Positions 1 to 33,707 of a stretch of DNA of 37,205 nt are shown here, one piece after another; position 1 is the first letter of the stretch; the number at the start of each line of letters is the position of its first letter. The position numbers and the translations under genes were made by a program. Location of the stretch: IMG/VR virus record IMGVR_UViG_2687453522_000004. One strand, written 5' to 3'. This stretch comes from a virus (lineage: Duplodnaviria > Heunggongvirae > Uroviricota > Caudoviricetes). Under the pieces are notes generated by a model, which saw only the letters and a program-made list of their open reading frames with translations, searched no databases and was not told the DNA's origin.

Positions 1-852
1 TTAAACACGAGGCATATAGGTCTGATTCCGATATTCAATTGGAGTCAGACCTTTTAATTTCAGGCTAATTCTTCTGCTGTTGTAGTATTCAATATATTCC
101 GTAACAGCATCCTTCAGTTCGCTTATATTACTGAACTCATCAAGATAAAAACACTCCGACTTTAAGGTTCCAAAGAAACACTCCACCACAGCATTATCCA
201 GACAATTGCCTTTTCTGGACATGCTTTGTTTAATACCATGTTCTTTAAGGATATTTTGATATCTTCTCATACGATACTGCCATCCCTGGTCAGAGTGCAG
301 AACAGGATGCTCGTGAGGATTAAGCTTTTTGAATGCCTGATCGAGCATATTCTCAACCATGTTCATCACTGGTCTTTCCGAAAGGCTGTAAGAAATAACT
401 TCGTTGTTGAAGAGATCTATTACTGGAGACAAATACAGCTTGCGCCCATTGACTGCAAATTCAGTAACATCGGTAACCCACTTCTCGTTTGGCCGCGTAG
501 CCTTGAAATCTCTTTGGAGAACATTAGGGGCGGTTTGCCCTACCTCTCCTCTGTAAGAGCGGTATCGCTTGACCTTAATCGCTGCTTTAAGTGAGAGGGT
601 TCCCATCAGGCGCTGAACAGCTTTATGGTTAATCTGTTTCCCTTCTCGATGAAGAGACAGCGTTACCCTACGGTATCCGTATCGGCCTCTATTCTCGTGA
701 TAAATCTCACTAATACGCTTTTTAACGTCCGCATACTTGTCAGGCTTGCTGAGAGCCTTTAGATGATAATAAAACGTACTGCGCGGTATCTCCGCAGCCC
801 TGAGAAGCTCATCAAGAGGATAAAACTGCCTTAGCTCGTTGAGTACTTTCAC
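1..852 (-). CDS. insK: IS150 OrfB (InsK-like, DDE integrase-core transposase); normally made as an OrfAB fusion by -1 frameshift
   Basis: 283-aa ORF in the -1 frame relative to OrfA, overlapping its 3' end; rve-type catalytic core; the stop codon is the first 3 nt of the window. Confidence 0.9.
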
Positions 853-1370
853 TTTTTCGTGGGATGAGCTAAGGCTTTCAGCTTTTTTAGATACATAAGC
901 CGCGTTTCAAGAAATCGAACTTGCCTTTCAAGATCCTCAATGCGTCGGTCTTTTGACAGCTCCAATGCTGATGCCGCTTTTTCTGGATCAACTGATATTG
1001 CAATGTTTCTTTTGGTGCCAATCTTGAGCGCGCGTAAACCAGCTTCTCCGCGCTCTTCATAGACCTTCAGCCACCTGGCTACAGAACCACTACCAGCAAG
1101 CATAAAGTGAGCAGCAGCCTGATTAAGGGACATGTGCTGCTCGATCACAGCTTTCACGACCTTAATACGCAACTCTGGATCAGCACTAACGCCTTTAGGT
1201 TTGGGAATTAAACCTTTTTCTCCATGTTTTTCATAGAGGGCAACCCATGTCCTGACCTGGGTTCGGGGGACACCAAAACGTGCCGAGATGATCCTGTAAC
1301 CATCATCAGTTGTGAAGTAGTGATTCACGACTTCAAGGCGCTTTTCAAAAGGGTATTTTGGCTTTGACAT
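849..1370 (-). CDS. insJ: IS150 OrfA (InsJ-like, HTH DNA-binding transposase subunit)
   Basis: 173-aa ORF starting MSKPKYPFEKRLEVVNHYF; HTH and leucine-zipper-like region typical of IS3-family OrfA. Confidence 0.9.
   Translation of the reverse strand: MSKPKYPFEKRLEVVNHYFTTDDGYRIISARFGVPRTQVRTWVALYEKHGEKGLIPKPKGVSADPELRIKVVKAVIEQHMSLNQAAAHFMLAGSGSVARWLKVYEERGEAGLRALKIGTKRNIAISVDPEKAASALELSKDRRIEDLERQVRFLETRLMYLKKLKALAHPTKK
882..888 (-). other. Programmed -1 ribosomal frameshift heptamer A AAA AAG (IS150 OrfA to OrfAB)
   Basis: On the minus strand, CTA AAA AAG is in the OrfA zero frame 11 codons before the OrfA stop; OrfB continues in the -1 frame. Confidence 0.8.
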
Positions 1371-1442
1371 ATTAGGGGCTATTCCATTTCATCGTCCAAC
1401 AAAATGGGTGCAGTACACGACTGAGGGGCTTTCTGTTTGTAA

Positions 1443-8104: not shown

Positions 8105-8673
8105 CTATTTGTCCCGGTTGGCTAAGGGATGACACAATTTATTTTTTGTCACTGAGGCGGGGAATTTTTTATAGAGCGTGGACAGGCCAATATCAAAAAT
8201 CAGTGCCACGCGTTGACGTGATTCCCCTGCAGCCAGCAACCGCCCGGCCTGCTCCCACTCACTCGCGGTGAGTTTCGGACGTCTGCCACCAATACGACCT
8301 TTGGCTCTGGCCGCCTCCAGTCCGGCGCGTGTCCGCTCGACAATGAGTTCTCGCTCCATTTCAGCCAGGGCACCCATCACATGAAAGAAAAAACGCCCCA
8401 TCGGCGTGCTGGTATCAATGGCATCCGTCAGGCTGCGAAAATTAATGCCGCGTTCGCGCAGCTCCTCAACCAGAATGACCAGATGCCGCATACTACGCCC
8501 CAGCCGGTCCAGCTTCCAGACTACCAGAGTGTCACCTTCCGATAATGTTCTGAGCAGTTTTTTCAGCCCCGGCCTGTCGGACTTCGTGCCGCTGATTTTA
8601 TCCTCAAAAATCAGCTCACATCCTGCGCACTCCAGCGCGTTACGCTGCAATTCCGTGTTCTGGTCATTTGTTG
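8105..8673 (-). pseudogene. Serine DNA invertase (Pin/Gin/Hin/Cin family), C-terminal fragment separated from its start by an IS66-family insertion
   Basis: Translation ...LQRNALECAGCELIFEDKISGTKSDRPGLKKLL...GDTLVVWKLDRLGRS...MGRFFFHVMGALAEMERE... is resolvase/invertase-like with a C-terminal HTH. Reading upstream in frame runs into the IS end instead of the MLIGYVRVS N-terminus. Confidence 0.88.
8666..8673. repeat. Target-site duplication ATTTGTTG, left copy (IS66-family insertion)
   Basis: Exact 8-bp direct repeat also present at 11129..11136 directly flanking the IS ends. Confidence 0.85.
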
Positions 8674-8714
8674 GTAAGCGTGCAGCAAGAACCGTATTGA
8701 CGGGGATGTGTTAT

Positions 8715-10250
8715 TCAGTCGGCAGTGCTACGCGCCAGGGGGAGCAGTTCGCCGACCCGGTTTATCGGCCAGTCGGCTATGACGTCAAGGACATAGCGGA
8801 GGTAGCTTTCTGGCTCCACTCCGTTCAGTTTGCACGTCCCGATCAGGCTGTACAGCAGCGCTCCCCGCTCTCCTCCATGATCCGAACCGAAGAACAGGTA
8901 GTTTTTGCGGCCCAGACTGACCATCCGCAACGCATTTTCAGCGATGTTATTGTCCGCCTCAGCCCAGCCATCATCTGCATAGTACGTCAGCGCCGGCCAC
9001 TGGTTCAGGGCGTATGCGAACGCTTTCGCCAGTTCTGAGTGTCGCGACAGGGTTTTCATCTTTTCACGCAGCCAGCTTTCCAGGGATTTCAGCAGCGGTT
9101 TCGTTTTCAACTGACGTTCGGCAAGGCGCTGCTCCGCCGTCATTCCCCTTATCTCTGCCTCGATGGCGTACAGTTCGCCGATCCGTTTCAGCGCTTCCTC
9201 CGTCAGGGCTGACGGGGTGCGAACGTGCACATCGTGGATTTTACGGCGGGCGTGAGCCCAACAGGCGGCTTCCGTTATCCGGCCATCCCGGTACAGCTCG
9301 TTGAACCCGGCGTATGCATCCGCCTGCAGTACACCACTGAACCCCGCAAGATGGGTCTGCGGATGGATGCCTTTTCTGTCCGGGCTGTAAGCGAACCACA
9401 CCGCCGGCGCCAGCGTTGACCCGGCGTTACGGTCGTCACGAACGTAGGTCCATAACCGCCCGGTCTTCGTTTTCTTATTGCCTGGCAACAGCACCGGGAC
9501 AGGCGTGTCATCAGCATGGAGCTTACCGTCAGTCAGCACATAGTCCTGAAGCGCTTCTTCCAGCGGTGACAGTAGCCGGCAGCATGCATCCACCCAGCCC
9601 GACAGCAGTGAACGACTCAGCTCCACGCCCTGGCGGCCGTACATTTCAGACTGGCGGTACAGCGGGGTGTGCTCTGCATACTTTGAGATCAGCACGCGGG
9701 CCAGCAGCCCCGGTCCTGCGATACCCCGCTCGATGGGCCGTGAAGGCGCGGGGGCCTGCACGATGGCATCGCACTGAGTACAGGCATGCTTTTCACGTAC
9801 AGTCCGGATAACCCGGAAGGCGCTGCGCATCAGCTCCAGCTGTTCGGCGGCATCCTCACCCAGATAGCTCAGCGAGCCTCCACATTCCGGGCAGCATGAC
9901 GCTGCCGGCAGCAGCCGTTTTTCATCGCGGGGGAGTGATTCGGGGAACGGTTTGCGGGTGCGGGTTTGACGCAGCGGGCGCTGCACGGCCGGGTCGTCAA
10001 CCCGACCGGTAAGGGTATCACTTTCTTTCTGAAGTGCCTTCAGGTCAGCTTCCATCTGTGCGATACGACGGGAGACTTTTTCCGAGCGGCTGCCGAAGTT
10101 CATCCGGCGCAGCTTATCCAGCTGTGCCTGCAGATGGTCTATTTCGCGTTCACGCTCGTTCAGCTTTTCCTGCAGGGCACGGTTCAGCGCCTCCTGTTCG
10201 GCAAGGAGACGTTTCAGTGCATTGATATCGTCAGGAAGTGAGCTGCTCAT
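8715..10250 (-). CDS. tnpC: IS66-family transposase TnpC
   Basis: 511-aa ORF with N-terminal coiled coil/leucine zipper, CxxC zinc-finger motifs (CCPECGG...CTQCD) and a DDE-type core, typical of IS66 TnpC. Confidence 0.88.
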
Positions 10251-10298
10251 ACCGGGTATATTACCAGGCTCATTCAGCGTCGACCAGGATAAAGAGGC

Positions 10299-10646
10299 TT
10301 ACAACATAGTCAGGGACGTAAGCAGTCTTTTAGGCTGCCGCCAGTCGATACCTTCCAGCAGCATCGCCAGCTGTGCCGGTGTGAGGAACACTTTGCCATC
10401 CCGGGCTGACGGCCAGGCGAAGCGGCCGCGCTCCAGCCGTTTGGTCAGCAGACACAGTCCATCGCCGGTAGACCAGAGGAGCTTTACCTGACTGCCATTA
10501 CGCCCACGGAAGATAAAAACGTGACCTGACATCGGATCGTCTTTCAGCGTCGTCTGCACCTTTGCCGCCAGGCCGTTGAAGCCGTTTCTCATATCGGTGA
10601 TGCCAGCGACCAGCCAGATCTTTGTCCCTGATGGTAATGGGATCAA
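10299..10646 (-). CDS. tnpB: IS66-family TnpB (Orf2)
   Basis: 115-aa ORF MIPLPSGTKIWLVAGITDMRNGFNGLAAKV..., typical IS66 Orf2. Confidence 0.85.
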   Translation of the reverse strand: MIPLPSGTKIWLVAGITDMRNGFNGLAAKVQTTLKDDPMSGHVFIFRGRNGSQVKLLWSTGDGLCLLTKRLERGRFAWPSARDGKVFLTPAQLAMLLEGIDWRQPKRLLTSLTML

Positions 10647-11047
10647 CGTTTGAGCTCCCGTATCAGCAGGTTCAGGATATTTTCGCTGATGGCACCATTC
10701 AGACGGAGTGATCCGTGCCGGAACGTCACTTCACAGCTGATATTGAGTGATTCAGGTGTCGCAGCAGCTACAGGTTGTGACCGGGGGGAGGTTGTAGGGA
10801 CAACATCTTCGGCATCAAGTGTTATCGGGAGCAGCTCAGGCACGTTGTTTTCTGTTGTTGAAGGAGGACGTAGTTTTCCTTCGCGCCAGTACTGGCGCCA
10901 CTTGAACAGCAAATTATCGTTGATCCCATGCTCACGAGCGAGTTGCGCTACGGAGATCTCTGGTCGATGCGAGAGTTCAACCATTTTGATTTTGAACTCA
11001 ACGGGATAATTAGGGCTTTTTTTACGCACTGCGGTTAATGATTTCAT
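10643..11047 (-). CDS. tnpA: IS66-family TnpA (HTH accessory protein)
   Basis: 134-aa ORF, first gene of the IS66 triad, overlapping tnpB. Confidence 0.8.
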   Translation of the reverse strand: MKSLTAVRKKSPNYPVEFKIKMVELSHRPEISVAQLAREHGINDNLLFKWRQYWREGKLRPPSTTENNVPELLPITLDAEDVVPTTSPRSQPVAAATPESLNISCEVTFRHGSLRLNGAISENILNLLIRELKR

Positions 11048-11128
11048 GGATTGCGTCCACCATATTTGGTGTCCACTATTCTCTCAGGAATTTCAGGATC
11101 TGCCAGACGGTGCTGAGACGACGCTTAC

Positions 11129-11136
11129 ATTTGTTG
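11129..11136. repeat. Target-site duplication ATTTGTTG, right copy (IS66-family insertion)
   Basis: Exact 8-bp direct repeat of 8666..8673. Confidence 0.85.
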
Positions 11137-11161
11137 ACACGCGTACATAGCCAATAAGCAT
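11129..11161 (-). pseudogene. Serine DNA invertase, N-terminal fragment (MLIGYVRVSTN) with Shine-Dalgarno GGGGG, cut off by the IS66-family insertion
   Basis: On the minus strand, ATG CTT ATT GGC TAT GTA CGC GTG TCA ACA AAT then runs into the IS terminal repeat. Joining it to 8665..8105 restores a 197-codon invertase. Confidence 0.85.
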
Positions 11162-11188: not shown

Positions 11189-11704
11189 ATGATGCCACTT
11201 GCCCGTTATCTCTGCATTTTCATAAACGTTGGTTTGGGAGAAGGCTCTGTATTACCCGTTGGTGTGCCTGTTCCGTGGCCTTCAGCCACACTGCCAACAG
11301 GCTGGCTGAAATGCAACGGGGCGGCATTTTCTGCTGAAGAATACCCGGAACTGGCAAAGGCTTACCCGACAAATATATTGCCTGATTTACGTGGTGAATT
11401 TATTCGTGGCTGGGATGACGGGCGCGGAGTGGACAGTAGCCGGACGTTGTTGTCGTGGCAAAAAGGCTCTTATCTGGTTCAGGAAGCCAATATATCACCC
11501 GACAGCGTGGTGCAGTTTTCGGTAAACGACATTGCCCTGCTGGGATGGGATAAAACTGAAACCAATTCAGATATTCTCAGAGCGAAAAGTATACCTACAG
11601 AACATATCTGGAACCCCGTTCCAGTGGGAGCCTGGGGGATTCAGTATCTGGGTTATGCAAGGCCACGTAACATTGCATTTAACTACATCGTAAGGGCTGC
11701 ATGA
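11189..11704 (+). CDS. Alternative tail-fibre C-terminal segment (Sv'-like), currently not joined to the constant part; would fuse to H after inversion
   Basis: The open frame passes through the crossover site, encoding ...FINVGLGEGSVLPVGVPVPWPSATLPTGWLKCNGAAFSAEEYPELAKAYP..., a remembered Mu/P1-type fibre tip motif. There is no convincing independent start or promoter. A dedicated assembly gene follows. Confidence 0.7.
   Translation: MMPLARYLCIFINVGLGEGSVLPVGVPVPWPSATLPTGWLKCNGAAFSAEEYPELAKAYPTNILPDLRGEFIRGWDDGRGVDSSRTLLSWQKGSYLVQEANISPDSVVQFSVNDIALLGWDKTETNSDILRAKSIPTEHIWNPVPVGAWGIQYLGYARPRNIAFNYIVRAA
11219..11244 (+). repeat. Putative invertase crossover site (gix/hix/pix-like 26-bp imperfect palindrome) bounding the invertible tail-fibre segment on the invertase side
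   Basis: TTTTCATAAACGTTGGTTTGGGAGAA resembles the remembered Hin/Gin consensus TTnnnnnAAACC-NN-GGTTTnnnnnAA. Its 14 inner bases TTGGTTTGGGAGAA are identical in inverted orientation to the site at 13168..13193. Confidence 0.7.
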
Positions 11705-12321
11705 TGAGCAAGAAAACCATGACTACAGCGGTGCTGAATGAATCGCGGCTGGCAACAGTTGCAGGAGAGGTTGTTGTCCACAGCTACGATAATAAGACGC
11801 GGGAATACCTTTGCACGTCAACCGAATATCTGGCTGTGGGCGTTGGCCTTCCTGCACATTCATGCACTGATGCCCCCGGGGAAAGGCGGGCTGGTTATGC
11901 AATTTGCCGCACAGCCGACCTGACCGCGTGGGAGTACGTGCCGGACCATCGGGGTGAGACAGTCTATAACACAGAAACCCGTGAGGCAGCAGAAATCACC
12001 ACTCCGGGGGATTACCCTGAAAACACAACCACTGTCGCCCCGTTAACGCCATACGATGAATGGGATGGTGAGAAATGGGTGACAGATACTGAGGCACAGC
12101 ATAGCGCCGCAGTAGGCGCGGCAGAAACACAGCGACAGTCACTGATTGATACTGCAATGGCTTCCATTAATCTGATTCAACTGAAATTGCAGGCCGGGCG
12201 AAAACTGACGCAGACAGAAACCACCCGGCTTAACGTCGTGCTGGATTACATTGACGCGGTGACGGTAACTGATACCAGCACCGCGCCGGATATCAATTGG
12301 CCTGCTCCCCCGGAGGCGTAG
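11701..12321 (+). CDS. Tail fibre assembly protein (U'-like) paired with the alternative fibre segment
   Basis: 206 aa; start overlaps the Sv' stop (ATGA); converges on and overlaps the other assembly gene by 29 bp. Confidence 0.75.
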   Translation: MMSKKTMTTAVLNESRLATVAGEVVVHSYDNKTREYLCTSTEYLAVGVGLPAHSCTDAPGERRAGYAICRTADLTAWEYVPDHRGETVYNTETREAAEITTPGDYPENTTTVAPLTPYDEWDGEKWVTDTEAQHSAAVGAAETQRQSLIDTAMASINLIQLKLQAGRKLTQTETTRLNVVLDYIDAVTVTDTSTAPDINWPAPPEA

Positions 12322-12739
12322 GCCAGACGGGATTTGATGTATCAACGCGCATCAGTAAGACCCGATATTTTTTCCATTCAGACAACGCGGCGGTTTCTTC
12401 TGCCGTCGCGATTTCCGCATCAAAAGCATCCTGTCTCCAGACTATTTCCTTATCAGCCATTGAACGCAATACCGTTCTTTTCTGTTCAGCCTGAATAATC
12501 TGTTGTTCAGCGGAGAGTGGCGGGATATCAATCCATGCAGGATTACCATTTTTATCAGCCCCCAGCGTTTTGCCTTCTGGCGCTACGCCTGTGTAAATTG
12601 CTATTGTTTCATCATCAACATCAACGCCATTTTCAGGCCATGAACCGGCGCTGATATATACCTCTTTTAGTGCTTTCGGATAGAAAGAGCCTTTATAAAA
12701 TTTATTCATTCTTAATACCCCAGCGCGATAAAACAACAA
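12293..12739 (-). CDS. Tail fibre assembly protein (P2 G / Mu U-like) for the currently expressed fibre variant
   Basis: 148-aa ORF immediately downstream of the fibre gene; C-terminus ...SEWKKYRVLLMRVDTSNPVWPTPP resembles the conserved assembly-chaperone C-terminus. Confidence 0.8.
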   Translation of the reverse strand: MLFYRAGVLRMNKFYKGSFYPKALKEVYISAGSWPENGVDVDDETIAIYTGVAPEGKTLGADKNGNPAWIDIPPLSAEQQIIQAEQKRTVLRSMADKEIVWRQDAFDAEIATAEETAALSEWKKYRVLLMRVDTSNPVWPTPPGEQAN

Positions 12740-14007
12740 TCTTCGGTGCCCTCTCCGGATGGCGACCAGTTCTGAATACTGATATGCGTTCTGCTGGCAA
12801 TACGCACATTCATCGCGGCATTGTAGCCAGATGTTCCACGGTTTCCGGTCGCAAACAAGCCTGCATAGGGAAAAGCAAATGGTAAGGCATATCCAGCATC
12901 AGCTCCCTTTTGTGTTGCCACCGTTCCCCACTGCAACATAAGTTTCACCGGGTTTCCTGTCGTCGCAATGCATGGAATGTAGATGTAGCCATTACCTGAC
13001 ATCATTGACCTGAAGCTGTCTAAATCCAGTAACTTCGAGGCATTATCTGCTCCAACATCTCGTGTTGCAGCGGTCCCTAACTGGAGCGCATTTCGGAAGG
13101 CTGATACATCAGAAATATCAGATCCATTAGCCGATTTCTGCATAGCTCTGGAGGCTCTATTTATCGTTTCTCCCAAACCAAGGTATGCGAGAAGGCCGGC
13201 AACATCCTTTCCGCTCAAATGAGTCAGCGTCTCATCCAGTGGCTGCTTACCTGACAGCGCATTGTTAATAGTGGTGCTGAATTTCGGGTCATTGTTAATG
13301 GCTGCGGCAATTTCTTTCAGTGTGTCCAGCGTGGCTGGCGCGCCGTTAATCAGAGCGGTAATAGCGGCCTGAACAAACTCAGTGGTCGCAATCCGCGTGG
13401 TGTTATTTCCTGCGGCAGGCGTCGGGGCTTTTGGTTCTCCGGTAAATGTCGGATTATGTTTCTGTGCATACTGGGTATGAGGATCCTGTGCGGCAATGTG
13501 GTTTCTCATCTGGTCATCCACATACAGCCTTAATTCCAGGACTTCATCATCCACATATTTACGGGTCGCCAGTACCACCGACGGGTCGATTTTCAGCGTG
13601 ATGGCTTCGATATTCGTGACAACCAGAATCATGCGGATAGTCTGGGTACGACCACTGCCTTCCTGTAACTGCGGTTTGTACGTTTCCGGGCAGTTGGCCA
13701 CCGCAATGAGTACGCCTTCATCATCATAAAGCCCAATCTCACGGATCCAGAATCCGCCCTCGTTCTCAGGGATGATTTGCTCCGCAATAATCTGGCTCTG
13801 GTTGTTCGGGTCAACACTCAGAAGATTCAGCGGTGCAATGCGTTTCTGATTAATCAGTTTTGTCTGTGCCGGGTCTGGTGTCGGCAAGACACCATTCGCA
13901 TCACCAACGGCCATTTGCGTCAGATTCAGCTTACTGCCAAGCATCGTCGCGTTAGCCAGCCGTGCTGCGCCCTGATTAGTCAGAATGGCGTAGTATTTCA
14001 CTGTCAT
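12712..14007 (-). CDS. H: Tail fibre protein (gpH-like): constant N-terminal part 13194..14007 plus variable C-terminal part 12712..13167 inside the invertible segment
   Basis: 431 aa; N-terminus aligns with remembered P2 H motifs (MAVGD, GGFWxRExGLYDD, LIAVAN, EGSGR, YVDD, NDPxFxTTxNALxGKQP). Confidence 0.9.
   Translation of the reverse strand: MTVKYYAILTNQGAARLANATMLGSKLNLTQMAVGDANGVLPTPDPAQTKLINQKRIAPLNLLSVDPNNQSQIIAEQIIPENEGGFWIREIGLYDDEGVLIAVANCPETYKPQLQEGSGRTQTIRMILVVTNIEAITLKIDPSVVLATRKYVDDEVLELRLYVDDQMRNHIAAQDPHTQYAQKHNPTFTGEPKAPTPAAGNNTTRIATTEFVQAAITALINGAPATLDTLKEIAAAINNDPKFSTTINNALSGKQPLDETLTHLSGKDVAGLLAYLGLGETINRASRAMQKSANGSDISDVSAFRNALQLGTAATRDVGADNASKLLDLDSFRSMMSGNGYIYIPCIATTGNPVKLMLQWGTVATQKGADAGYALPFAFPYAGLFATGNRGTSGYNAAMNVRIASRTHISIQNWSPSGEGTEDCCFIALGY
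13168..13193 (-). repeat. Putative invertase crossover site inside the tail-fibre gene at the constant/variable junction
   Basis: Plus strand TTCTCCCAAACCAAGGTATGCGAGAA; its reverse complement shares 14/14 inner bases with the site at 11219..11244; it encodes the fibre motif AYLGLGE. Confidence 0.7.
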
Positions 14008-19425: not shown

Positions 19426-19934
19426 CAGATTTGACTCACGATGCAGCGCGGCTTGTCCTGGATACGCGCCACTGCCCAGCGCATATCCCGCCACAGCTTA
19501 TCAATAGTGCTGTCTATGCTGTCGGCCTTCTTGTCGCCTTTTGCACTGGCATCCACACCGCGATAACGCTCATAAAGCGACGCGGTCGCCATCGCACACA
19601 CGGCGCGCTCGTAGTAAAAAACTTTGATGCTTTCACCGTCGATATCGTCCGCCGGGACGTCCGCCAGACGCGTAAAACCGGCGGCAATTTTCTGTTCACG
19701 GTACTCGTACAGCTCCGCATTCGTTTCAGCCATGCCTGACTTGATGGCCTCACGCAGACGGGCGGGGGCGACGGTCTGCTCAAGGCGCATACGTTCCCGG
19801 ACGCGCTTCGGGTCGATATCGGGAAAAAAGAACGTGTTTTTAATCACCGGCTCGTCGCCTGCCGGTTGCGGGATGACCACCGTACCCTCACCGGACACGG
19901 GAGCCTCCTTTCGCGGAATAATCAGCGTCATCAT
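19425..19934 (-). CDS. L: Capsid completion protein gpL-like (169 aa from MMTLIIPR; the ORF track extends to 19994)
   Basis: Conserved N-terminus; follows M. Confidence 0.85.
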   Translation of the reverse strand: MMTLIIPRKEAPVSGEGTVVIPQPAGDEPVIKNTFFFPDIDPKRVRERMRLEQTVAPARLREAIKSGMAETNAELYEYREQKIAAGFTRLADVPADDIDGESIKVFYYERAVCAMATASLYERYRGVDASAKGDKKADSIDSTIDKLWRDMRWAVARIQDKPRCIVSQI

Positions 19935-26060: not shown

Positions 26061-26118
26061 ATGGTAATGATAATTCTGCGTTAACAATTAAACTAATGTA
26101 CCTGTAAGAGGATAAAAA

Positions 26119-28602
26119 ATGTCTGGTTTTTTCCTTGATTTAACCAAGCTTTCGCCCAGTGTAAATAGCGACACAGCGATTCCACCGCGAGATATATTTA
26201 CAGCTCTACCGAGCAAAGACACCAAATTTCAATACCCTCGAGATGTGCAATCAGAGGTCTGGGAAAAATGGTATGAAGCAAGGAGAAGCCCAACCAATGT
26301 AATAAAAATGAATACCGGAAGCGGTAAAACTTCAGTTGGGTTAATCATTCTTAAAAGCTGTATAAATGAAGGAGAAGGTCCCGCTGTATATGTTGTTCCT
26401 GACAACTATCTAGTTGAGCAAGTGGTTTTGGAGGCTAATCAACTTGGTATACCTGTAACTCAAGATGAGAGGTCCCCCAAATTTATTGCAGGTAAAGAAA
26501 TTTTAGTTACAAATATATTCAAAGTGGTTAATGGACGTTCTGCATTTGGCGTTGGAGATGATGGACAAAGAATACCAATAGGTTCTATAATAATTGACGA
26601 TGCTCACGCTTGCCTTTCTTCAATTGAAGAACAATTCTCCATTAGCATTCAAAAAAACAACCCTGCCTATGATAAATTATTCAGAATTTTTGAAAATTCA
26701 CTAATGACACAAGCTGGTGCAAAAACACTAGAGATAAAATCCGGCGATAGAAATGCTTATGTGAGAGTTCCATTTTGGAAATGGCAAGAAAGCATAAATG
26801 ATATAATGACAATCTTGTTAGAAAATAAAGACCATGATGACTTGAGTTTCAAATGGCCATTAATAAAAGACAATCTAATATTATCGAAATGCGTTGTAAG
26901 TGCTTCCAAAATAGAGATATCACCTCATTGCATACCAATCCAAATGATCCCAAGCCTATCAAACGCAAGAAGAAAAATATTCATGACAGCTACTCTTGTC
27001 GATGAATCCATTCTAGCGAGCCACTTCGGAATAACGGATGAATCACTCTCTAATCCGATAACACCAAAAACAATTGGTGATATTGGTGATAGAATGATAC
27101 TAATGCCTCAGGTTATAAACCCTAGTCTTTCTGATGTAGATATCAAAGCTATGTGCAAGGAGATATCCTCCAAACATAATGTTGTTGTAATTGTACCATC
27201 CGATTACAGAACTAGATTTTGGCAAGATGTTGCAGACAGAATATTAGATAAAAATACAATTTATCAAGGTGTACAAGAATTAAGGACACAACATGTTGGC
27301 TTAGTAGTCCTAGTTAATAGATATGATGGTATTGATTTACCAAATACCGCATGTCGTCTATTAGTAATAGATGGACTTCCTGACGTTCGTAGACTAATAG
27401 ATAAAGTCTCACAAAGCTTATTGCTTGGAAGCGAAAAAACCAAAGATGAAATTATCCAGAAAATTGAACAAGGAATGGGGCGAGGAGTGAGATCAAGCGA
27501 CGACTTCTGCGGAGTGATCTTACTTGGCAAAGCATTAAATGGCGCTGTTTTCCTTGGCTCCTCCTTAGAAAGGTTTTCTCCAGCAACGAAAGCACAAATT
27601 CAACTTTCACAGCAATTGGTATCGATACTGCCGGATACAACTATTGATTCAATCAAAGGTGCTCTTGATTATTGTCTGTTACGCAATTCTGACTGGGTCT
27701 CAAAAAGCAAAGGTATATTGACTGGCTTAACATTGGAAAATAAGCAGATTGACCAGCATACTATAAATAAAAGATTGGCATATGACTTAGCATCACGAAA
27801 TATGTTTCAACAAGCCGCTTTAACTCTAAAAAATGATAGTAGTACAGCTGACAAAGTTTATAAGGGTTATCTAAAAGAACATGCTGCGGAATATGTAAAC
27901 TTATATGACAAATCTGAAGCTCAGATATTGCTTCAGTCTGCATCAAACGATAACTATCGGGTATTAAAACCACTAATCGGCGTAACATATAATAGACTTA
28001 ATGGTGCGGCACTTGAACAGGCCAGGGAATGTAGCTCCTATCTCAGAAGTAATTTTGAATCGGCCAATCAAGTCGTTGTGCATACTAATTCAATAATAGA
28101 AAACCTTATTTTCTCCGAGGGCACATCGAATCCCTTCGAAGATGCTATCGAAAAAGTTGCATATTTGGTCGGTTTTCGTAGCCAACGGCCAGAAAATGAT
28201 ACAGGTAAAGGACCTGACAATTTATGGGCAATGGGAGAAAACAATTATCTAGTAATTGAATGCAAAAATGGAGCAACCGCAGAAAGAATAAGTAAGCATG
28301 ACTGCAATCAGTTAAATGGGTCGGGTGCATGGTTCAGAAACATGTATGATCAAACTGCTACCGCCACACCTATAATGATACATCACTCTAATATGCCTGA
28401 ATATGCCGCAACACTAAACGAAGGGTCTCGAATAATGACCATAAATGATCTTGAACGTTTTAAAGCATCTATCCTCAGTTTTATCACGGCCATTTGTACA
28501 AGTGATAAACGACACGATGAGATATTTATAAGAGAACAATTGATCACATGTAAATTACGTGCATCAGACATAGTTGAAACCTATACGCGAAACCCTCGTT
28601 AA
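26119..28602 (+). CDS. Low-GC cargo gene: 827-aa SF2 (DEAH/ResIII-like) helicase fused to a C-terminal PD-(D/E)xK nuclease; candidate single-gene anti-phage defence protein
   Basis: Uninterrupted ORF with AAGAGG Shine-Dalgarno. Helicase motifs: MNTGSGKT (Walker A), VVPDNY, IIIDDAHAC (motif II), FMTATL (motif III), QGMGRGVR (motif VI). C-terminal ...GPDNLWAMGENNYLVIECK... gives a D ... E-x-K pattern. Codon usage is AT-rich, unlike the flanking phage genes. Confidence 0.6.
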   Translation: MSGFFLDLTKLSPSVNSDTAIPPRDIFTALPSKDTKFQYPRDVQSEVWEKWYEARRSPTNVIKMNTGSGKTSVGLIILKSCINEGEGPAVYVVPDNYLVEQVVLEANQLGIPVTQDERSPKFIAGKEILVTNIFKVVNGRSAFGVGDDGQRIPIGSIIIDDAHACLSSIEEQFSISIQKNNPAYDKLFRIFENSLMTQAGAKTLEIKSGDRNAYVRVPFWKWQESINDIMTILLENKDHDDLSFKWPLIKDNLILSKCVVSASKIEISPHCIPIQMIPSLSNARRKIFMTATLVDESILASHFGITDESLSNPITPKTIGDIGDRMILMPQVINPSLSDVDIKAMCKEISSKHNVVVIVPSDYRTRFWQDVADRILDKNTIYQGVQELRTQHVGLVVLVNRYDGIDLPNTACRLLVIDGLPDVRRLIDKVSQSLLLGSEKTKDEIIQKIEQGMGRGVRSSDDFCGVILLGKALNGAVFLGSSLERFSPATKAQIQLSQQLVSILPDTTIDSIKGALDYCLLRNSDWVSKSKGILTGLTLENKQIDQHTINKRLAYDLASRNMFQQAALTLKNDSSTADKVYKGYLKEHAAEYVNLYDKSEAQILLQSASNDNYRVLKPLIGVTYNRLNGAALEQARECSSYLRSNFESANQVVVHTNSIIENLIFSEGTSNPFEDAIEKVAYLVGFRSQRPENDTGKGPDNLWAMGENNYLVIECKNGATAERISKHDCNQLNGSGAWFRNMYDQTATATPIMIHHSNMPEYAATLNEGSRIMTINDLERFKASILSFITAICTSDKRHDEIFIREQLITCKLRASDIVETYTRNPR

Positions 28603-28841: not shown

Positions 28842-29834
28842 TTACTCTGAATAACCAGAAAACCCACTCCACTCATCTACACTAGGATATGAAAATTGCT
28901 TTTCATTGTAATTGACGATCGCACCGCGTACTAACGCCTCAAGCTCCCATCGCTGCGGCCTGATACCGTTTTGAGCAAGGTCAACACGGATACGGGTGAT
29001 TTGCAATCGTTCAGACCGGGTCAGTCTGGCCGATGGTGCAATTTCATGTGGTTTTAACGGGCTTCCGTTTCTTTGCTGACGACCTGGCGTTCTCCGACCG
29101 TGTTTTAATGCACCCCTGAGCGCCCTCACGACCTCCGGGTCATTCCATTCGATAACACCGTCATCAACCAGATTTAGCACTGCTGCGGCGTGCTCAGAAG
29201 GTGTGGGAGCCGGTAACGAAGTATCACCACCGGTGAGCTTTCCACAGTTATTGACAGGACTCCGAGGCGCGGCGATGCCGCTTTTTAAAGTCAAAGGCTC
29301 AACGACCGGAACTTTCGGCACAATGCGCCAGTCCGTCGTTCTGGTGATATGAATATGACGCGCGCCGAGATGCGGCGCGTAAATGCCGACCACTCTCTCG
29401 ACTTCTTCCTCGTACTCGTTAACGTCATCCGACAGACTACGGGCGACCCTGACAGTCTGACAATCGCGCGGGACATTTGCCCCGCCCTGCGCGCTGATAT
29501 ACAGCGCAAAATCACCACTGTCTGCGGCGGCGCGTGCAGCCTCGACGCGCTCGTCAAACTCATCAGCAATGCTGACGCCGCGAGGCAATTTGCGTAGTTC
29601 ACGGTAAGCCCCCATTGTCGGCAGGCCAACCGTTTTAAATTGCGGAATGCGCCACGTTGACGCCCATGCGGTAACAGCCGCTGCAGTGTCTTTCAGCGGC
29701 CTGCCGGTGTCGTTATCGAGCTGACCATCCAGTGCATAGCCGTCGATGTTTTTTGAAATGTATTTCGCGATATATCCCGCAGCACCGCCCCGGTTAAGGT
29801 GTTTTGCCTGAAAACGGTTTCGCGCGGCTCCTCT
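28842..29834 (-). pseudogene. A: Replication initiation protein gpA-like, C-terminal fragment (about 330 codons) cut off from the N-terminal part by an IS21-family insertion
   Basis: Reading upstream from the ORF start at 29615 stays open and P2 A-like (...RGAARNRFQAKHLNRGGAAGYIAKYISKNIDGYALDG...) up to the IS boundary at 29835. Confidence 0.85.
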
Positions 29835-29919
29835 TGCGTATTACCGTGAAGGAGATCGGTGAGTAACATCGATGGAGATCGGTTCGTGTCACTTTCACAG
29901 AACCGTTTTTAAATTACCT

Positions 29920-30669
29920 TCACTGATCTCCTTCGGTCAACGGAGATTGTATTTTCCGCATTGATTCTCCTTTAAGTTCGATCTTGATACTGCCATGAAC
30001 CAGTCGATCTAGGATGGCATCCGCATGTGTGGAGTCTCCGATCATTTTGTACCAGTTTTCCACCGGCAACTGGCTCACTACGATGATTGAGCCTCGTTGG
30101 TACATCAGATCCACTATTTCCAGCAGGTCGCTACGCTGTTCTGATGAGAGAGGTTCCAGCCCCCAGTCATCCAGAAGCAGCAGATCGCTATTATTCAGCC
30201 TGGTCAAAAGTTTGCTGTATCTTCCATCAGCATGCCCCTGATAGCACTGTTCCATCAGCGCTTTAAGGCGATAATAGTAGACCTTGTATCCCTGTCGGCA
30301 GGCATTATGACCAAGTGCACATGCCAGGAACGTTTTACCGCTGCCGGTGGCCCCGGTCAGTAAAATATTTTGTTTCAGGGTTAACCAGTTTCCCTGACTG
30401 AGTGAACGGATGAGGGCCCTGTCCAGCCCTCTATTGTTACGATAATCCAGCTTTGATAACTCAGCATTAAGTCTGAACCGTGCATGTTTGATCAGACGCT
30501 CTGCCTTCCTGTTTTCACGGCAGGTTAGTTCTTCTGCTGTCAGTAATGACAGGCGTTCTTCGAAGCCCAGCTCCTGGTATGTGCCCGGTTGAGCAAGTTG
30601 CTTTTTAAGCGCATCACGGAAGCCGGTGAGTTTAAGTGCGGTCAGTTGTTCGTAAAGATGATTCATCAT
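29920..30669 (-). CDS. istB: IS21-family ATP-binding helper IstB
   Basis: 249 aa with Walker A (GATGSGKT) and Walker B (LLLLDDWG) motifs, DnaC-like. Confidence 0.88.
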   Translation of the reverse strand: MMNHLYEQLTALKLTGFRDALKKQLAQPGTYQELGFEERLSLLTAEELTCRENRKAERLIKHARFRLNAELSKLDYRNNRGLDRALIRSLSQGNWLTLKQNILLTGATGSGKTFLACALGHNACRQGYKVYYYRLKALMEQCYQGHADGRYSKLLTRLNNSDLLLLDDWGLEPLSSEQRSDLLEIVDLMYQRGSIIVVSQLPVENWYKMIGDSTHADAILDRLVHGSIKIELKGESMRKIQSPLTEGDQ

Positions 30670-30680
30670 TGGATCCCGTA

Positions 30681-32222
30681 TCAGTGGTAATACTCACTGC
30701 CGCGTACGTTTTCGTGTTCCATCGTGGATAACAGATCTGGTTTTGGATCCTGAACAGGTTGTTTATCCAGACCTTTTTCCAGGATCGATTTAATACCTGA
30801 CAGACGCCATACCTTTGTTTCCAGAGCTCTTGCACATGCTGCATTAAGTCTGGCTTTACTGTATTTTTTATGAAGGTTCAGGAGTCCAAGGCAGAAGCGA
30901 TAGCTTTGTTCCGGATGTGGACGAGAGTTCAGTATATGAAGCACATAACTATGAGTTTCACTGCCTATGTGCCCCGCCCATTCCAGAAGACGCTCTGGCG
31001 TCCAGGTGGCATGCTGTCGATGAGCTTCAGGCATGTGCTCGTTGCGGGTACTGTAGCCATAAGTACGCTTGCGCGGGTGCACAGCAACCTCCTGCCCCTG
31101 ATTGAAGAGTCTTACCAGTTCTCCGGAGATCCATGCTTCCAGTTGCTGGCCTAACAGCGAACATGGAACCGAGTAGTAATGTTTGTCGATTTCCACGTGG
31201 TAATCGGCATGAACTCTGACTTTCTTCACCAGGGTGTAACTGTAACTGGCTTCAGGAAGAGGCTTCAGTGCGGGTTTATCAAGCTGGATGAAGAGTTCTG
31301 CACGTGAATAACCCAACTTCTGCATTATTTTGTTATTCAGTCTTTCCAGCAACTCCCGAATGCGCTGATTAAGCGATGCAAGGCTGTAGAAGATCTCATG
31401 CCTGATTCGGGCCATGATCCAGCGTTCAACAACCTGAACGCCAACTTCAGCTTTGGCTTTATCTTTCGGTTTACGTGGCCGCGCAGGCAAAACTGCGACA
31501 TTATAATGCTCAAGCATCTGCTGGTAGGTAGGGTTAACGTCAGGATCATACTTACATGCCCTGGATGTGGCGCTTTTCAGATTGTCCGGAACAACAAGTT
31601 CAGGAACGCCACCCAACCACTGGAAGCAGCGAACATGACTCATCACCCAGTCTTCAAGCTGCTGAGACCAGGTGGCCTCTGCCCATGTGTAACTTGATGC
31701 CCCGAGAACAGCTACGATGACCTGAGCAGTTCTTATTTCTCCGGTCTCAGGGTCGGTAACGCCAACGGTAGGTCCACAGTAATCAACGAAAAGTTTTTCG
31801 CCAGCTTTATGTACCTGACGCATTGATGGTGAAGTGGTTTTGAGCCATTCACGGTACATCCGGCAGTAATGGTTATAGCTGTAAAAACCGCCTGGATTAC
31901 GCTCACAGTATTCTTCCCAGAGTAGCTGCAGCGTCACGCATTTATTACGCAGTTCCCGGTGTACTGTAGCCCAGTCAGGCAGAGAGTGCTTCTTCATCTT
32001 AACCTGGGTCTGAAGGAACGCATGTTTTAGTTTTGTATCATCCCATCCTGTAGGTAAGGGCCACTGCTTTATGCCAAGTTGAGCCGCCCGATTAGCATAT
32101 CTGGATACAACGGAAGGGGAGATTGCAAGACTACGACCAATTTGTCGATGGCTGAGTCCAACACCGTATTTAAGCCTAAGAATTTCTTTAAGTTTTCTCA
32201 TAGAAATTGGAACTGTTGGCAT
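30681..32222 (-). CDS. istA: IS21-family transposase IstA
   Basis: 513-aa ORF with N-terminal HTH and DDE core, upstream of and nearly abutting istB. Confidence 0.85.
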   Translation of the reverse strand: MPTVPISMRKLKEILRLKYGVGLSHRQIGRSLAISPSVVSRYANRAAQLGIKQWPLPTGWDDTKLKHAFLQTQVKMKKHSLPDWATVHRELRNKCVTLQLLWEEYCERNPGGFYSYNHYCRMYREWLKTTSPSMRQVHKAGEKLFVDYCGPTVGVTDPETGEIRTAQVIVAVLGASSYTWAEATWSQQLEDWVMSHVRCFQWLGGVPELVVPDNLKSATSRACKYDPDVNPTYQQMLEHYNVAVLPARPRKPKDKAKAEVGVQVVERWIMARIRHEIFYSLASLNQRIRELLERLNNKIMQKLGYSRAELFIQLDKPALKPLPEASYSYTLVKKVRVHADYHVEIDKHYYSVPCSLLGQQLEAWISGELVRLFNQGQEVAVHPRKRTYGYSTRNEHMPEAHRQHATWTPERLLEWAGHIGSETHSYVLHILNSRPHPEQSYRFCLGLLNLHKKYSKARLNAACARALETKVWRLSGIKSILEKGLDKQPVQDPKPDLLSTMEHENVRGSEYYH

Positions 32223-32415
32223 AGGTATCCTTTACCGGAATGGCAAAAGATACAGATCAACACACCTGTGAAGTTCCAATAACATTGATGGAGATCACTG
32301 AATAACAAAATGAGTCAAAAGTGATCTCCATCGATGTTATTCAGCGATCTGTTCAAATGTTATTACCCGATCTCGATGGAAGTTATTGAGTGATCTCCTT
32401 TCATGAAAATACGCA

Positions 32416-33707
32416 CCTCTTTCGTCGCCATCCTCTTTGAGCGCATAGCGACGCATGATTTCGATAATCTGGTTACGCTGGCGTGGATGACAAAAAAGCA
32501 TCATATGCCAGTGCGGCGTTCCGTCGTGGTGTGGCTCGACGACTCGCAAACCGTAGACCTGTAAATCATTATCCTTGAATGCCGTGCGCATCAGGCTCCA
32601 GATACGGCAGAGATAACGCTGCGCATCCTTTGGATTAAATGCCTCATCGTTCCAGCCGTGATTAAGCTGAACGGTTTTACTTTCGCCTTTTCCGACCTGA
32701 CGTGTCGGGTGATACTTTGACGGCGCGGTCAGCGTGATAAACATCCCCACATCACCCTCTGCGGCGGCGTAACGCTCAATACCGGCAATGGTGTTCATCA
32801 GCTCCATCCGGCGAATTTCAGGATTAGAAATACTGCCCATCACCTTACTGATAAGGTCGATGCGCTCGCCGGTTTCCCTGTTTTCAAGGTCACACGATTT
32901 AAGAAATTCCAGATTTGCCTGGCGGCGCGCACGCACATCACGAATGGCGTGTTTACTGGCATAAGGAGAACGGTCTTTATTGACCTCCCCGACAGCTATC
33001 AGTAACGCCTCATGCCAGCGCATACGCTGGCCTTTAAGCTGATGAGTCCACCACTCATCGTTAAACAGGCGGGCAATGGCAGAATATGCCTGCCTCGTGG
33101 TCATCTGTCCTTTACGGTATTTTTTCCAGTAGAGCGGGGAAATATTGAAAGCACGTGCAGCGCCAGCAACATGACCATACAGGTGAGCCTGCGCCTCATC
33201 CGTAAACAGCGATTCTTTTTCACCATGCGCATCAACCCATGCATCGCAGAGTTCCTCATACATCATGAAAAGCTGCGATGAGATACGGGCGGCAAACTTT
33301 TTCAGCTCCTTGTCATTCATTCCCGGCAGGCGCGCATAGTGGTCACGCTCTGCCAGAAACAGCAACGACGCGTCGGTGTTCATTTCATGGCGCTGATTCA
33401 CACGCTCAATGCGCGGCCATAAACGACGCTGAAAAGTAGATGTGAGGAAATAAAACCCGTGCACCGGGCTTTTATTGCGCCGGATGTAGTCATAGCGTGA
33501 AGTAAACAGCGAGCGCAAAAAGTAAGGCAGGCGGTTAATCGTGGATAAAACACCTTGCACCTGACGCATCTCGTCACGTGTAAGAGGTCTTTCGCGCCCG
33601 ACAGCCTCGCGTGGCGCGTTCCATGCATAAGCACCGGTAAACGCCTTACCGGTGCCTGCGGTAAATGCTGACGGAGGGACAAAACGCCCGGAGGCTTTAA
33701 CGGCCAT
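32416..33707 (-). pseudogene. A: Replication initiation protein gpA-like, N-terminal fragment (about 430 codons); the frame runs into the IS and stops at 32337
   Basis: Start MAVKASGRFVPPSAF (the ORF track extends to 33749); the P2 A-like sequence ends ...EDGDERGA at the IS junction, then reads IS-derived residues. Confidence 0.85.

What the first reader, a model, noticed from the sequence alone, without database searches (positions are those of the whole stretch)
29830..32420. IS21-family element interrupts replication gene A (5-bp target duplication CCTCT)
The gpA-like reading frame is continuous across the insertion once the IS and one repeat copy are removed (...EDGDERGA | ARNRFQ...), giving about 760 codons, close to the remembered P2 A length. 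As found, A is split into a 430-codon N-terminal and a 330-codon C-terminal fragment. Without A the prophage should not replicate after induction.
Basis: seen in the sequence. Interest (0 to 1): 0.5.

Follow-up and report, generated by a model that had tools for sequence, protein, structure and literature searches.

The report
ISEc12 insertion splits P2 replication gene
A common E. coli jumping gene (ISEc12) has landed in the replication-initiator gene A of a P2-like prophage and should stop the phage copying itself; this is an ordinary lesion that is already annotated in public genomes of the ST167 clone.

Summary
A 2,581-bp IS21-family element occupies 29835-32415. It is 100% identical to ISEc12, has TG...CA ends and encodes istA and istB on the minus strand. 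It is flanked by a 5-bp target duplication, CCTCT, at 29830-29834 and 32416-32420.

Removing the IS and one repeat copy restores a 759-codon gene A (33707 to 28842, minus strand). The restored gene is 96% identical to P2 gpA and 2280/2280 nt identical to the intact A of the same prophage in E. coli strain 4/2-1.

The break lies after codon 430, inside the nuclease domain. It separates the HUH motif (H399-W-H401) from the two tyrosines Y450 and Y454. The origin nick site (window ~29263) stays in the C-terminal piece. There is no second A gene in the window.

The same insertion is present in 52 of 5,426 complete E. coli genomes, including known ST167 strains. RefSeq already annotates the two halves as pseudogenes. 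1,531 genomes carry the uninterrupted site.

Loss of replication is inferred, not tested. Mitomycin C induction is a poor test, because P2-type prophages are not SOS-inducible. The finding is ordinary prophage decay and of low interest.

The parts
29830..29834 (.). Left copy of the 5-bp target-site duplication, CCTCT. On the minus strand it reads AGAGG, which is A codon 430 plus 2 nt of codon 431.
   Evidence: P2 and strain 4/2-1 have a single copy at this position.
29835..32415 (-). ISEc12, an IS21-family element of 2,581 bp, complete. It is transcribed in the same direction as gene A.
   Evidence: 100% identity over its full length to many annotated ISEc12 copies. The ends are shared by 7 other copies.
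29835..29850 (.). Terminal inverted repeat at the istB-distal end (TGCGTATTACCGTGAA). It is followed by repeated GGAGATC-type motifs up to about 29901.
   Evidence: I1, I2, I19, D1
32400..32415 (.). Terminal inverted repeat at the istA-proximal end (TTCATGAAAATACGCA). It is preceded by repeated GATCTCC-type motifs from about 32278.
   Evidence: I1-I7, I19, D2
30681..32222 (-). istA, a 513-aa DDE transposase.
   Evidence: NF033546 IS21 family transposase, 310 bits against a cut-off of 160. Pfam rve and Mu-transpos_C_2. RefSeq WP_002431311.1.
29920..30669 (-). istB, the AAA+ helper ATPase. The ORF is 249 aa; RefSeq starts it one codon later, at 30666.
   Evidence: PF01695 IstB_IS21, 227 bits. 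NF038214, 270 bits against a cut-off of 200.
32416..32420 (.). Right copy of the target-site duplication, CCTCT.
32416..33707 (-). 5' fragment of gene A: ATG at 33707 and native codons 1-430. It contains the HUH motif H399-W-H401. As found, the frame runs on into the IS and stops at 32337, giving a 456-aa product with about 25 IS-encoded residues.
   Evidence: RefSeq annotates it as a pseudogene 'missing C-terminus'.
28842..29834 (-). 3' fragment of gene A: codons 430-759, including Y450 and Y454. A stop codon in the IS lies 2 codons upstream of the junction. The first in-frame ATG is M503, at 29615.
   Evidence: RefSeq annotates it as a pseudogene 'missing N-terminus'.
29247..29270 (-). P2-type origin of replication. 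The 24-nt sequence GCGCCTCGGAGTCCTGTCAATAAC is identical to P2. The annotated P2 nick position maps to window ~29263, which is nt 1859 of A and 572 bp from the IS.
   Evidence: rep_origin feature of NC_001895, sequence, mapping.

Best explanation
A single transposition event put a complete copy of ISEc12 (IS21 family; IstA transposase and IstB helper ATPase) into the replication-initiator gene A of a P2-like (Peduovirus-type) prophage. The prophage is integrated between fieF and cpxP.

The staggered 5-bp cut at AGAGG (A nt 1288-1292) was filled in and produced the CCTCT duplication. The insertion lies inside the HUH rolling-circle nuclease domain. The metal-binding HUH motif (H399-W-H401) stays on a 456-aa truncated product. 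The tyrosines Y450 and Y454 and the phage origin lie on a downstream fragment that has no start codon at the junction.

Without gpA the prophage cannot nick its own origin, so it cannot start rolling-circle replication. The lesion was then inherited vertically in a lineage that includes the ST167 carbapenem-resistant clone.

Shown here: the structure, the identity of the IS, the exact restoration of an intact allele, and the distribution across genomes. Inferred: loss of replication, and a single ancestral event.
For: IS identity and family:
- 100% identity over 2,581 bp to annotated ISEc12 copies.
- IstA and IstB score above the curated cut-offs for IS21 models.
- The same termini occur in 7 other copies, with mostly 5-bp duplications.

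Gene A:
- The restored ORF is 759 aa and matches Pfam Phage_GPA at E = 2.8e-124 over residues 133-462. REP_ORF2-G2P covers residues 360-458, so the break at 430/431 is inside the domain.
- 96% identity to P2 gpA with no gaps, and Y450/Y454 are conserved.
- 97-98% identity to the A genes of isolated, viable P2-like phages.
- 2280/2280 nt identity to the intact A of strain 4/2-1, which carries the same prophage at the same site.
- The P2 record describes A as essential and as the enzyme that nicks ori, and places ori inside A. That origin sequence is conserved in the 3' fragment.

Distribution:
- The identical 4,866-bp structure is in 52 of 5,426 complete genomes.
- Six of the 52 (ECONIH6, AR_0149, AR_0150, AR_0151, WCHEC005237, CRE1493) are listed as ST167 in PMC6392093.
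- The uninterrupted site is in 1,531 genomes.
- None of 50,697 phage records carries the A/IS junction.
- RefSeq flags both halves as pseudogenes.
Against: - No functional data exist: replication, excision and phage release were not measured.
- The assignment of H399/H401 and Y450/Y454 as catalytic residues rests on my knowledge of the P2 literature and on motif position. No solved structure was found.
- The prophage carries two further IS insertions, ISEc22 in the tail-fibre invertase and IS150 next to ogr. Gene A may therefore not be the only defect.
Confidence: 0.96

Rival explanations
1. The prophage was already non-viable before ISEc12 arrived, so the insertion in A is a neutral hit in dead DNA and not the event that disabled replication.
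For: Two other complete IS elements sit in the same prophage. ISEc22 (8674-11128, TSD ATTTGTTG) splits the tail-fibre invertase after codon 11. IS150 (1-1417, TSD CGA) lies in the hairpin just downstream of ogr. The ISEc22 insertion is also present in strain 4/2-1, which still has an intact A, so it is older.
Against: Neither of the other insertions hits a gene known to be essential for P2 growth. An invertase only switches tail-fibre type, and the ogr coding sequence is intact. RefSeq flags no other prophage gene as a pseudogene. The A allele shows no other damage: it is 100% identical to intact alleles.
Confidence: 0.15
2. The IS reached gene A by a short-range hop from a neighbouring site in the same prophage. 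The candidate donor is the site between portal gene Q and the helicase gene, where strain 4/2-1 carries an ISEc12 copy.
For: In strain 4/2-1 the same prophage has ISEc12 about 5 kb away, in the same orientation, 21 bp upstream of the helicase ATG, with TSD GTACC.
Against: The window has a clean single GTACC at that position, with no footprint. The two IS copies differ at 3 of 2,581 nt. The two insertions are therefore independent, from different source copies.
Confidence: 0.03
3. Assembly artefact: a repeated IS was placed wrongly inside A.
For: ISEc12 is multicopy. Genomes that carry it have a median of 3 places, and up to 17.
Against: 52 independently assembled complete genomes show the identical junctions. 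A perfect 5-bp target duplication flanks the element. Misassembly would not create a duplication.
Confidence: 0.01
4. Gene A remains functional despite the insertion, through split-protein complementation or frequent precise excision of the IS.
For: Both fragments keep undamaged native sequence, and the origin is intact.
Against: The 3' fragment has an in-frame stop 2 codons upstream of the junction and no start codon before M503, which is downstream of Y450/Y454. The HUH motif and the tyrosines would sit on different chains, or the tyrosines would not be made at all. The insertion is stable across 52 genomes.
Confidence: 0.02

Closest known systems
ISEc12 (IS21 family insertion sequence of E. 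coli)
   Same: 100% nucleotide identity over all 2,581 bp. It has istA and istB, TG...CA ends with repeated subterminal motifs, and a 5-bp target duplication.
   Different: Nothing in the element itself. Only the insertion site is particular.
Bacteriophage P2 gene A / gpA (Pfam PF05840 Phage_GPA, an HUH rolling-circle initiator)
   Same: The restored protein is 96% identical over 759 aa. It has the same position in the early operon after orf83 (DUF5405) and the same origin sequence inside the gene.
   Different: It is interrupted after codon 430. It is 759 aa against 761 aa, with a divergent last ~40 residues. It is followed by a different cargo gene (a PDC-S28 helicase) in place of orf91, tin and old.
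The same prophage with intact A in E. coli strain 4/2-1 (NZ_CP023834.1)
   Same: Same integration site next to cpxP. There is 1 mismatch in 14 kb of late genes. The A sequence, the helicase cargo and the ISEc22 insertion are identical.
   Different: A is uninterrupted. Its ISEc12 copy differs at 3 nt and sits upstream of the helicase gene instead.

Membership tests
IS21 family (ISEc12) | Two consecutive genes: a long istA (HTH plus DDE transposase) followed by a shorter istB (AAA+ helper ATPase). | tested here: met
   istA is 513 aa: NF033546 at 310 bits (cut-off 160), plus Pfam rve. istB is 249 aa: NF038214 at 270 bits (cut-off 200), plus PF01695 at 227 bits.
IS21 family (ISEc12) | Imperfect terminal inverted repeats ending 5'-TG...CA-3', with multiple repeated motifs inside both ends. 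| tested here: met
   Terminal arms of 16 nt at 81% complementarity, and extended arms of 53 nt at 72%. GGAGATC-type repeats occur 3 times at each end.
IS21 family (ISEc12) | Short target-site duplication. The family range of 4-8 bp is from my own knowledge. | tested here: met
   5 bp (CCTCT) here. Five other independent ISEc12 sites have 5 bp and one has 6 bp.
IS21 family (ISEc12) | Nucleotide identity to the named element. | tested here: met
   100% over 2,581 bp to copies that RefSeq names ISEc12. The ISfinder reference entry itself was not available.
P2 gpA / Phage_GPA HUH replication initiators | Sequence membership across the nuclease domain. | tested here: met
   PF05840 at E = 2.8e-124 and 415 bits (cut-off 31.4). 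96% identity to P2 gpA. This was tested on the in-silico restored protein.
P2 gpA / Phage_GPA HUH replication initiators | An HUH motif plus a pair of catalytic tyrosines (Y450, Y454 in P2) on one polypeptide. | tested here: not met
   The residues are conserved (H399-W-H401, Y450, Y454). As found in the window, however, they are separated by 2,586 bp and a stop codon. The gene is a pseudogene of this family. The catalytic roles of these residues are taken from the P2 literature as I remember it.
P2 gpA / Phage_GPA HUH replication initiators | The cognate origin and nick site lie inside the gene's own coding sequence. | tested here: met
   The 24-nt P2 origin sequence is identical, at window 29247-29270. 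The P2 record marks the nick at 29892, inside A.
P2 gpA / Phage_GPA HUH replication initiators | Site-specific nicking and covalent attachment activity. | not testable with these tools
   This needs biochemistry.
P2-like (Peduovirus-type) prophage | P2 gene order (int-C-cox-B-orf80-83-A, cargo, Q-P / O-N-M-L ... D-ogr), a short P2-type C repressor, and att repeats. | tested here: met
   RefSeq annotation of the identical region in M217. C is 43% identical to P2 C. A 27-bp att core is repeated next to fieF and cpxP.

The most novel reading that the evidence does not exclude
The A::ISEc12 lesion locks the prophage into the chromosome of an ST167 lineage. The prophage can no longer replicate or kill its host. 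It keeps immunity, a candidate anti-phage helicase (PDC-S28) in the A-Q hotspot, and an apparently complete late-gene set.

From my own knowledge, satellite P4 does not need the P2 A gene and switches on the late genes itself. On that basis the crippled prophage could still serve as a helper for P4-like satellites while being harmless to the cell.
Probability: 0.2. Interest if true: 0.3.

Novelty: already known. Interest (0 to 1): 0.08.

Why it matters
It matters little beyond bookkeeping. IS insertions that disable prophage genes are a routine form of prophage decay. This one is already visible in RefSeq annotation as ISEc12 flanked by two 'replication endonuclease' pseudogenes.

It has some practical value:
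- It is a clean clonal marker for part of the ST167 high-risk lineage.
- It tells anyone scoring prophages as 'intact' that this P2-like element should not be counted as replication-competent.
- The prophage still carries a candidate defence gene that the host may retain.

Tried and rejected
- Chance repeat: rejected. The IS ends are fixed by 7 other copies, and excision restores a known allele exactly.
- Second A gene in the window: none found.
- Local hop from the Q-helicase intergenic site seen in strain 4/2-1: rejected. The window has a clean empty site there, and the two IS copies differ at 3 nt.
- Solved structure for gpA, to anchor the active-site residues: none found by sequence; the only hit was a spurious porin at E = 0.65.
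- Literature:
  - The P2 review by Christie & Calendar and the review by Christie & Dokland are not held.
  - Searches for P2 gpA tyrosine and cis-action papers returned nothing usable. Those points are therefore marked as my own knowledge.
  - A search for ISEc12 plus prophage found no paper describing this insertion.
- Loci L002 and L004-L010 were not available to the Python sandbox. Their ends were compared with DNA alignment and get_sequence instead.
Full report
**What is in the sequence**

The bases between 29835 and 32415 form a 2,581-bp element that begins TGCGTATT and ends AATACGCA. CCTCT lies directly outside each end, at 29830-29834 and 32416-32420.

The element carries two minus-strand genes. 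One is a 513-aa ORF (30681-32222) and the other a 249-aa ORF (29920-30669). Both ends contain imperfect inverted repeats and several copies of a GGAGATC-type motif.

**Identity of the element**

The element is 100% identical over its full length to many copies that RefSeq names ISEc12. These are found in 1,908 of 5,426 complete E. coli genomes, on chromosomes and on plasmids.

The large protein scores 310 bits on NCBIfam 'IS21 family transposase' (cut-off 160) and has a Pfam rve domain. The small protein scores 270 bits on 'IS21-like helper ATPase IstB' (cut-off 200) and 227 bits on Pfam IstB_IS21.

I aligned both ends of seven other ISEc12 copies, which represent six independent sites. Similarity starts and stops at exactly the same bases as in the window. 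Five sites have a 5-bp duplication (ACCAC, CCAGC, CTGGT, ACACC, CCAGG) and one has 6 bp (GCTGGC). The boundaries and the 5-bp duplication are therefore properties of the element and not a coincidence.

**The interrupted gene**

Deleting 29835-32420 joins the two flanks into one open frame of 759 codons on the minus strand, running from the ATG at 33707 to the stop after 28845.

- The restored protein aligns to P2 gpA (761 aa) without gaps at 732/759 identities.
- It aligns at 97-98% to the A proteins of many isolated P2-like phages.
- It matches Pfam Phage_GPA at E = 2.8e-124 over residues 133-462.
- The restored DNA is identical at 2,280 of 2,280 positions to the intact 'replication endonuclease' gene of E. 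coli strain 4/2-1.

Strain 4/2-1 carries the same prophage at the same chromosomal site beside cpxP. P2 itself has the target AGAGG only once at this position.

**What the break does**

As found, the 5' piece reads on into the IS and stops at 32337, giving a 456-aa product. The 3' piece is preceded by an in-frame stop two codons inside the IS, and its first in-frame ATG is M503.

The HUH-type motif H399-W-H401 is on the 5' piece. Y450 and Y454 are on the 3' piece. From my knowledge of the P2 literature, these are the two active-site tyrosines.

The P2 reference record describes A as essential and as the enzyme that nicks the origin. It marks the nick inside A, at genome position 29892. The surrounding 24 nt are identical in the window at 29247-29270. 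This places the nick near 29263, which is 572 bp from the IS and inside the 3' piece.

The inference is that no active initiator can be made, so rolling-circle replication cannot start. No second A-like sequence exists in the window.

**Where it occurs**

The window matches the chromosome of strain M217 (NZ_AP019189.1, 4563241-4600445), with one mismatch at window position 19499.

- The full A::ISEc12 structure (4,866 bp) is present at about 100% identity in 52 of 5,426 complete genomes.
- Six of the 52 (ECONIH6, AR_0149, AR_0150, AR_0151, WCHEC005237, CRE1493) are listed as ST167 in PMC6392093.
- RefSeq annotates the two halves as pseudogenes: 'missing N-terminus' and 'missing C-terminus'.
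- An 800-bp probe spanning the empty site is uninterrupted in 1,531 genomes, many at 100% identity.
- None of 50,697 phage records contains the junction.

The simplest reading is one insertion event that was then inherited vertically.

**Context of the prophage**

RefSeq annotation of the identical M217 region shows a complete P2 gene order from ogr to int. Outside A, its only pseudogene flag in the prophage is on the transposase gene of the ISEc22 insertion described below.

The repressor is a short P2-type C protein, 43% identical to P2 C. A 27-bp att core is repeated beside fieF and beside cpxP, just outside the window.

Two more complete IS elements lie in the prophage:
- ISEc22 (IS66 family) at 8674-11128, with the 8-bp duplication ATTTGTTG. 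It splits a Hin/Gin-type invertase after codon 11.
- IS150 at 1-1417, with the 3-bp duplication CGA. It sits in the loop of the hairpin downstream of ogr.

Strain 4/2-1 shares the ISEc22 insertion but has an intact A, so the ISEc22 event is older.

Strain 4/2-1 has its own ISEc12 copy 21 bp upstream of the helicase gene, with duplication GTACC. That copy differs from the window's copy at 3 nt, and the window has a clean empty site there. The two ISEc12 insertions are therefore independent.

**Comparison with what is known, and verdict**

The element is ISEc12. The gene is a P2 gpA pseudogene. The event is ordinary IS-mediated prophage decay that is already annotated in public genomes. A literature search found no paper that singles it out.

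Two points on testing need correction:
- P2 prophages are assayed by spontaneous or Cox-stimulated phage release (PMC3936717), not by SOS induction. That P2 is non-inducible is my own knowledge.
- gpA acts mainly in cis (my own knowledge), so a second copy elsewhere would not rescue the prophage.

Interest is low.

Noticed in passing
window 26119-28602 (+): An 827-aa DEAD/ResIII plus DinG-like helicase occupies the cargo hotspot between gene A and portal gene Q, where P2 has old and tin. It matches the PADLOC candidate defence model PDC-S28 over its full length (1,054 bits). Rousset et al. 2022 (PMC9122126) describe this A-Q locus as an anti-phage hotspot.
   Followed up: partly
window 8674-11128, flanks 8666-8673 and 11129-11136: A complete ISEc22 (IS66 family, 2,455 bp, GTAAGCG...CGCTTAC ends, 8-bp duplication ATTTGTTG) splits a Hin/Gin-type invertase gene. 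Codons 1-11 (MLIGYVRVSTN, with the presumed catalytic serine) lie at 11129-11161, and the rest at 8105-8673. RefSeq annotates the truncated part as an intact 200-aa 'recombinase family protein' with a non-standard start. The insertion probably freezes the tail-fibre switch.
   Followed up: partly
window 11189-14007: This looks like an invertible tail-fibre segment. A tail-fibre gene (12712-14007, minus strand) and an assembly gene (12293-12739, minus strand) face an alternative collar-domain fragment (11189-11704, plus strand) and a second assembly gene (11701-12321, plus strand). The crossover sites were not looked for.
   Followed up: no
window 1-1417: IS150 (IS3 family; orfA 849-1370, orfB 1-852) runs off the left edge of the window. 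In strain M217 it is complete, with the 3-bp duplication CGA. It sits in the loop of the hairpin AGAAAGCCCCTC/GAGGGGCTTTCT just downstream of ogr (stop at 1443).
   Followed up: partly
L011 14083-16663 (strain 4/2-1, NZ_CP023834.1): The same prophage with an intact gene A carries an independent ISEc12 copy (3 nt different) 21 bp upstream of the helicase ATG, with duplication GTACC. The window has the clean empty site at 26099-26103. That insertion may alter expression of the candidate defence gene.
   Followed up: yes
L003 4347-4373 and L001 14501-14527 (strain M217, outside the window): A 27-bp direct repeat, CATGTGGGGGAAGACAGGGATGGTGTC, lies beside fieF and beside cpxP and is the likely att core. 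The prophage therefore extends beyond both ends of the window. It includes a 213-aa hypothetical gene between IS150 and the fieF-side att.
   Followed up: partly
hits H84, H85, H87, H89, H90, H95, H97, H100, H105: In at least nine complete E. coli assemblies the probe matches record positions 888-1687, which means the record starts at base 1 of the prophage A gene. The assembly software probably rotated the chromosome onto this 'replication' gene instead of dnaA.
   Followed up: no
window 19499: This is the only base that differs between the window and the M217 chromosome. The rest of the 37,205 bases are identical.
   Followed up: no
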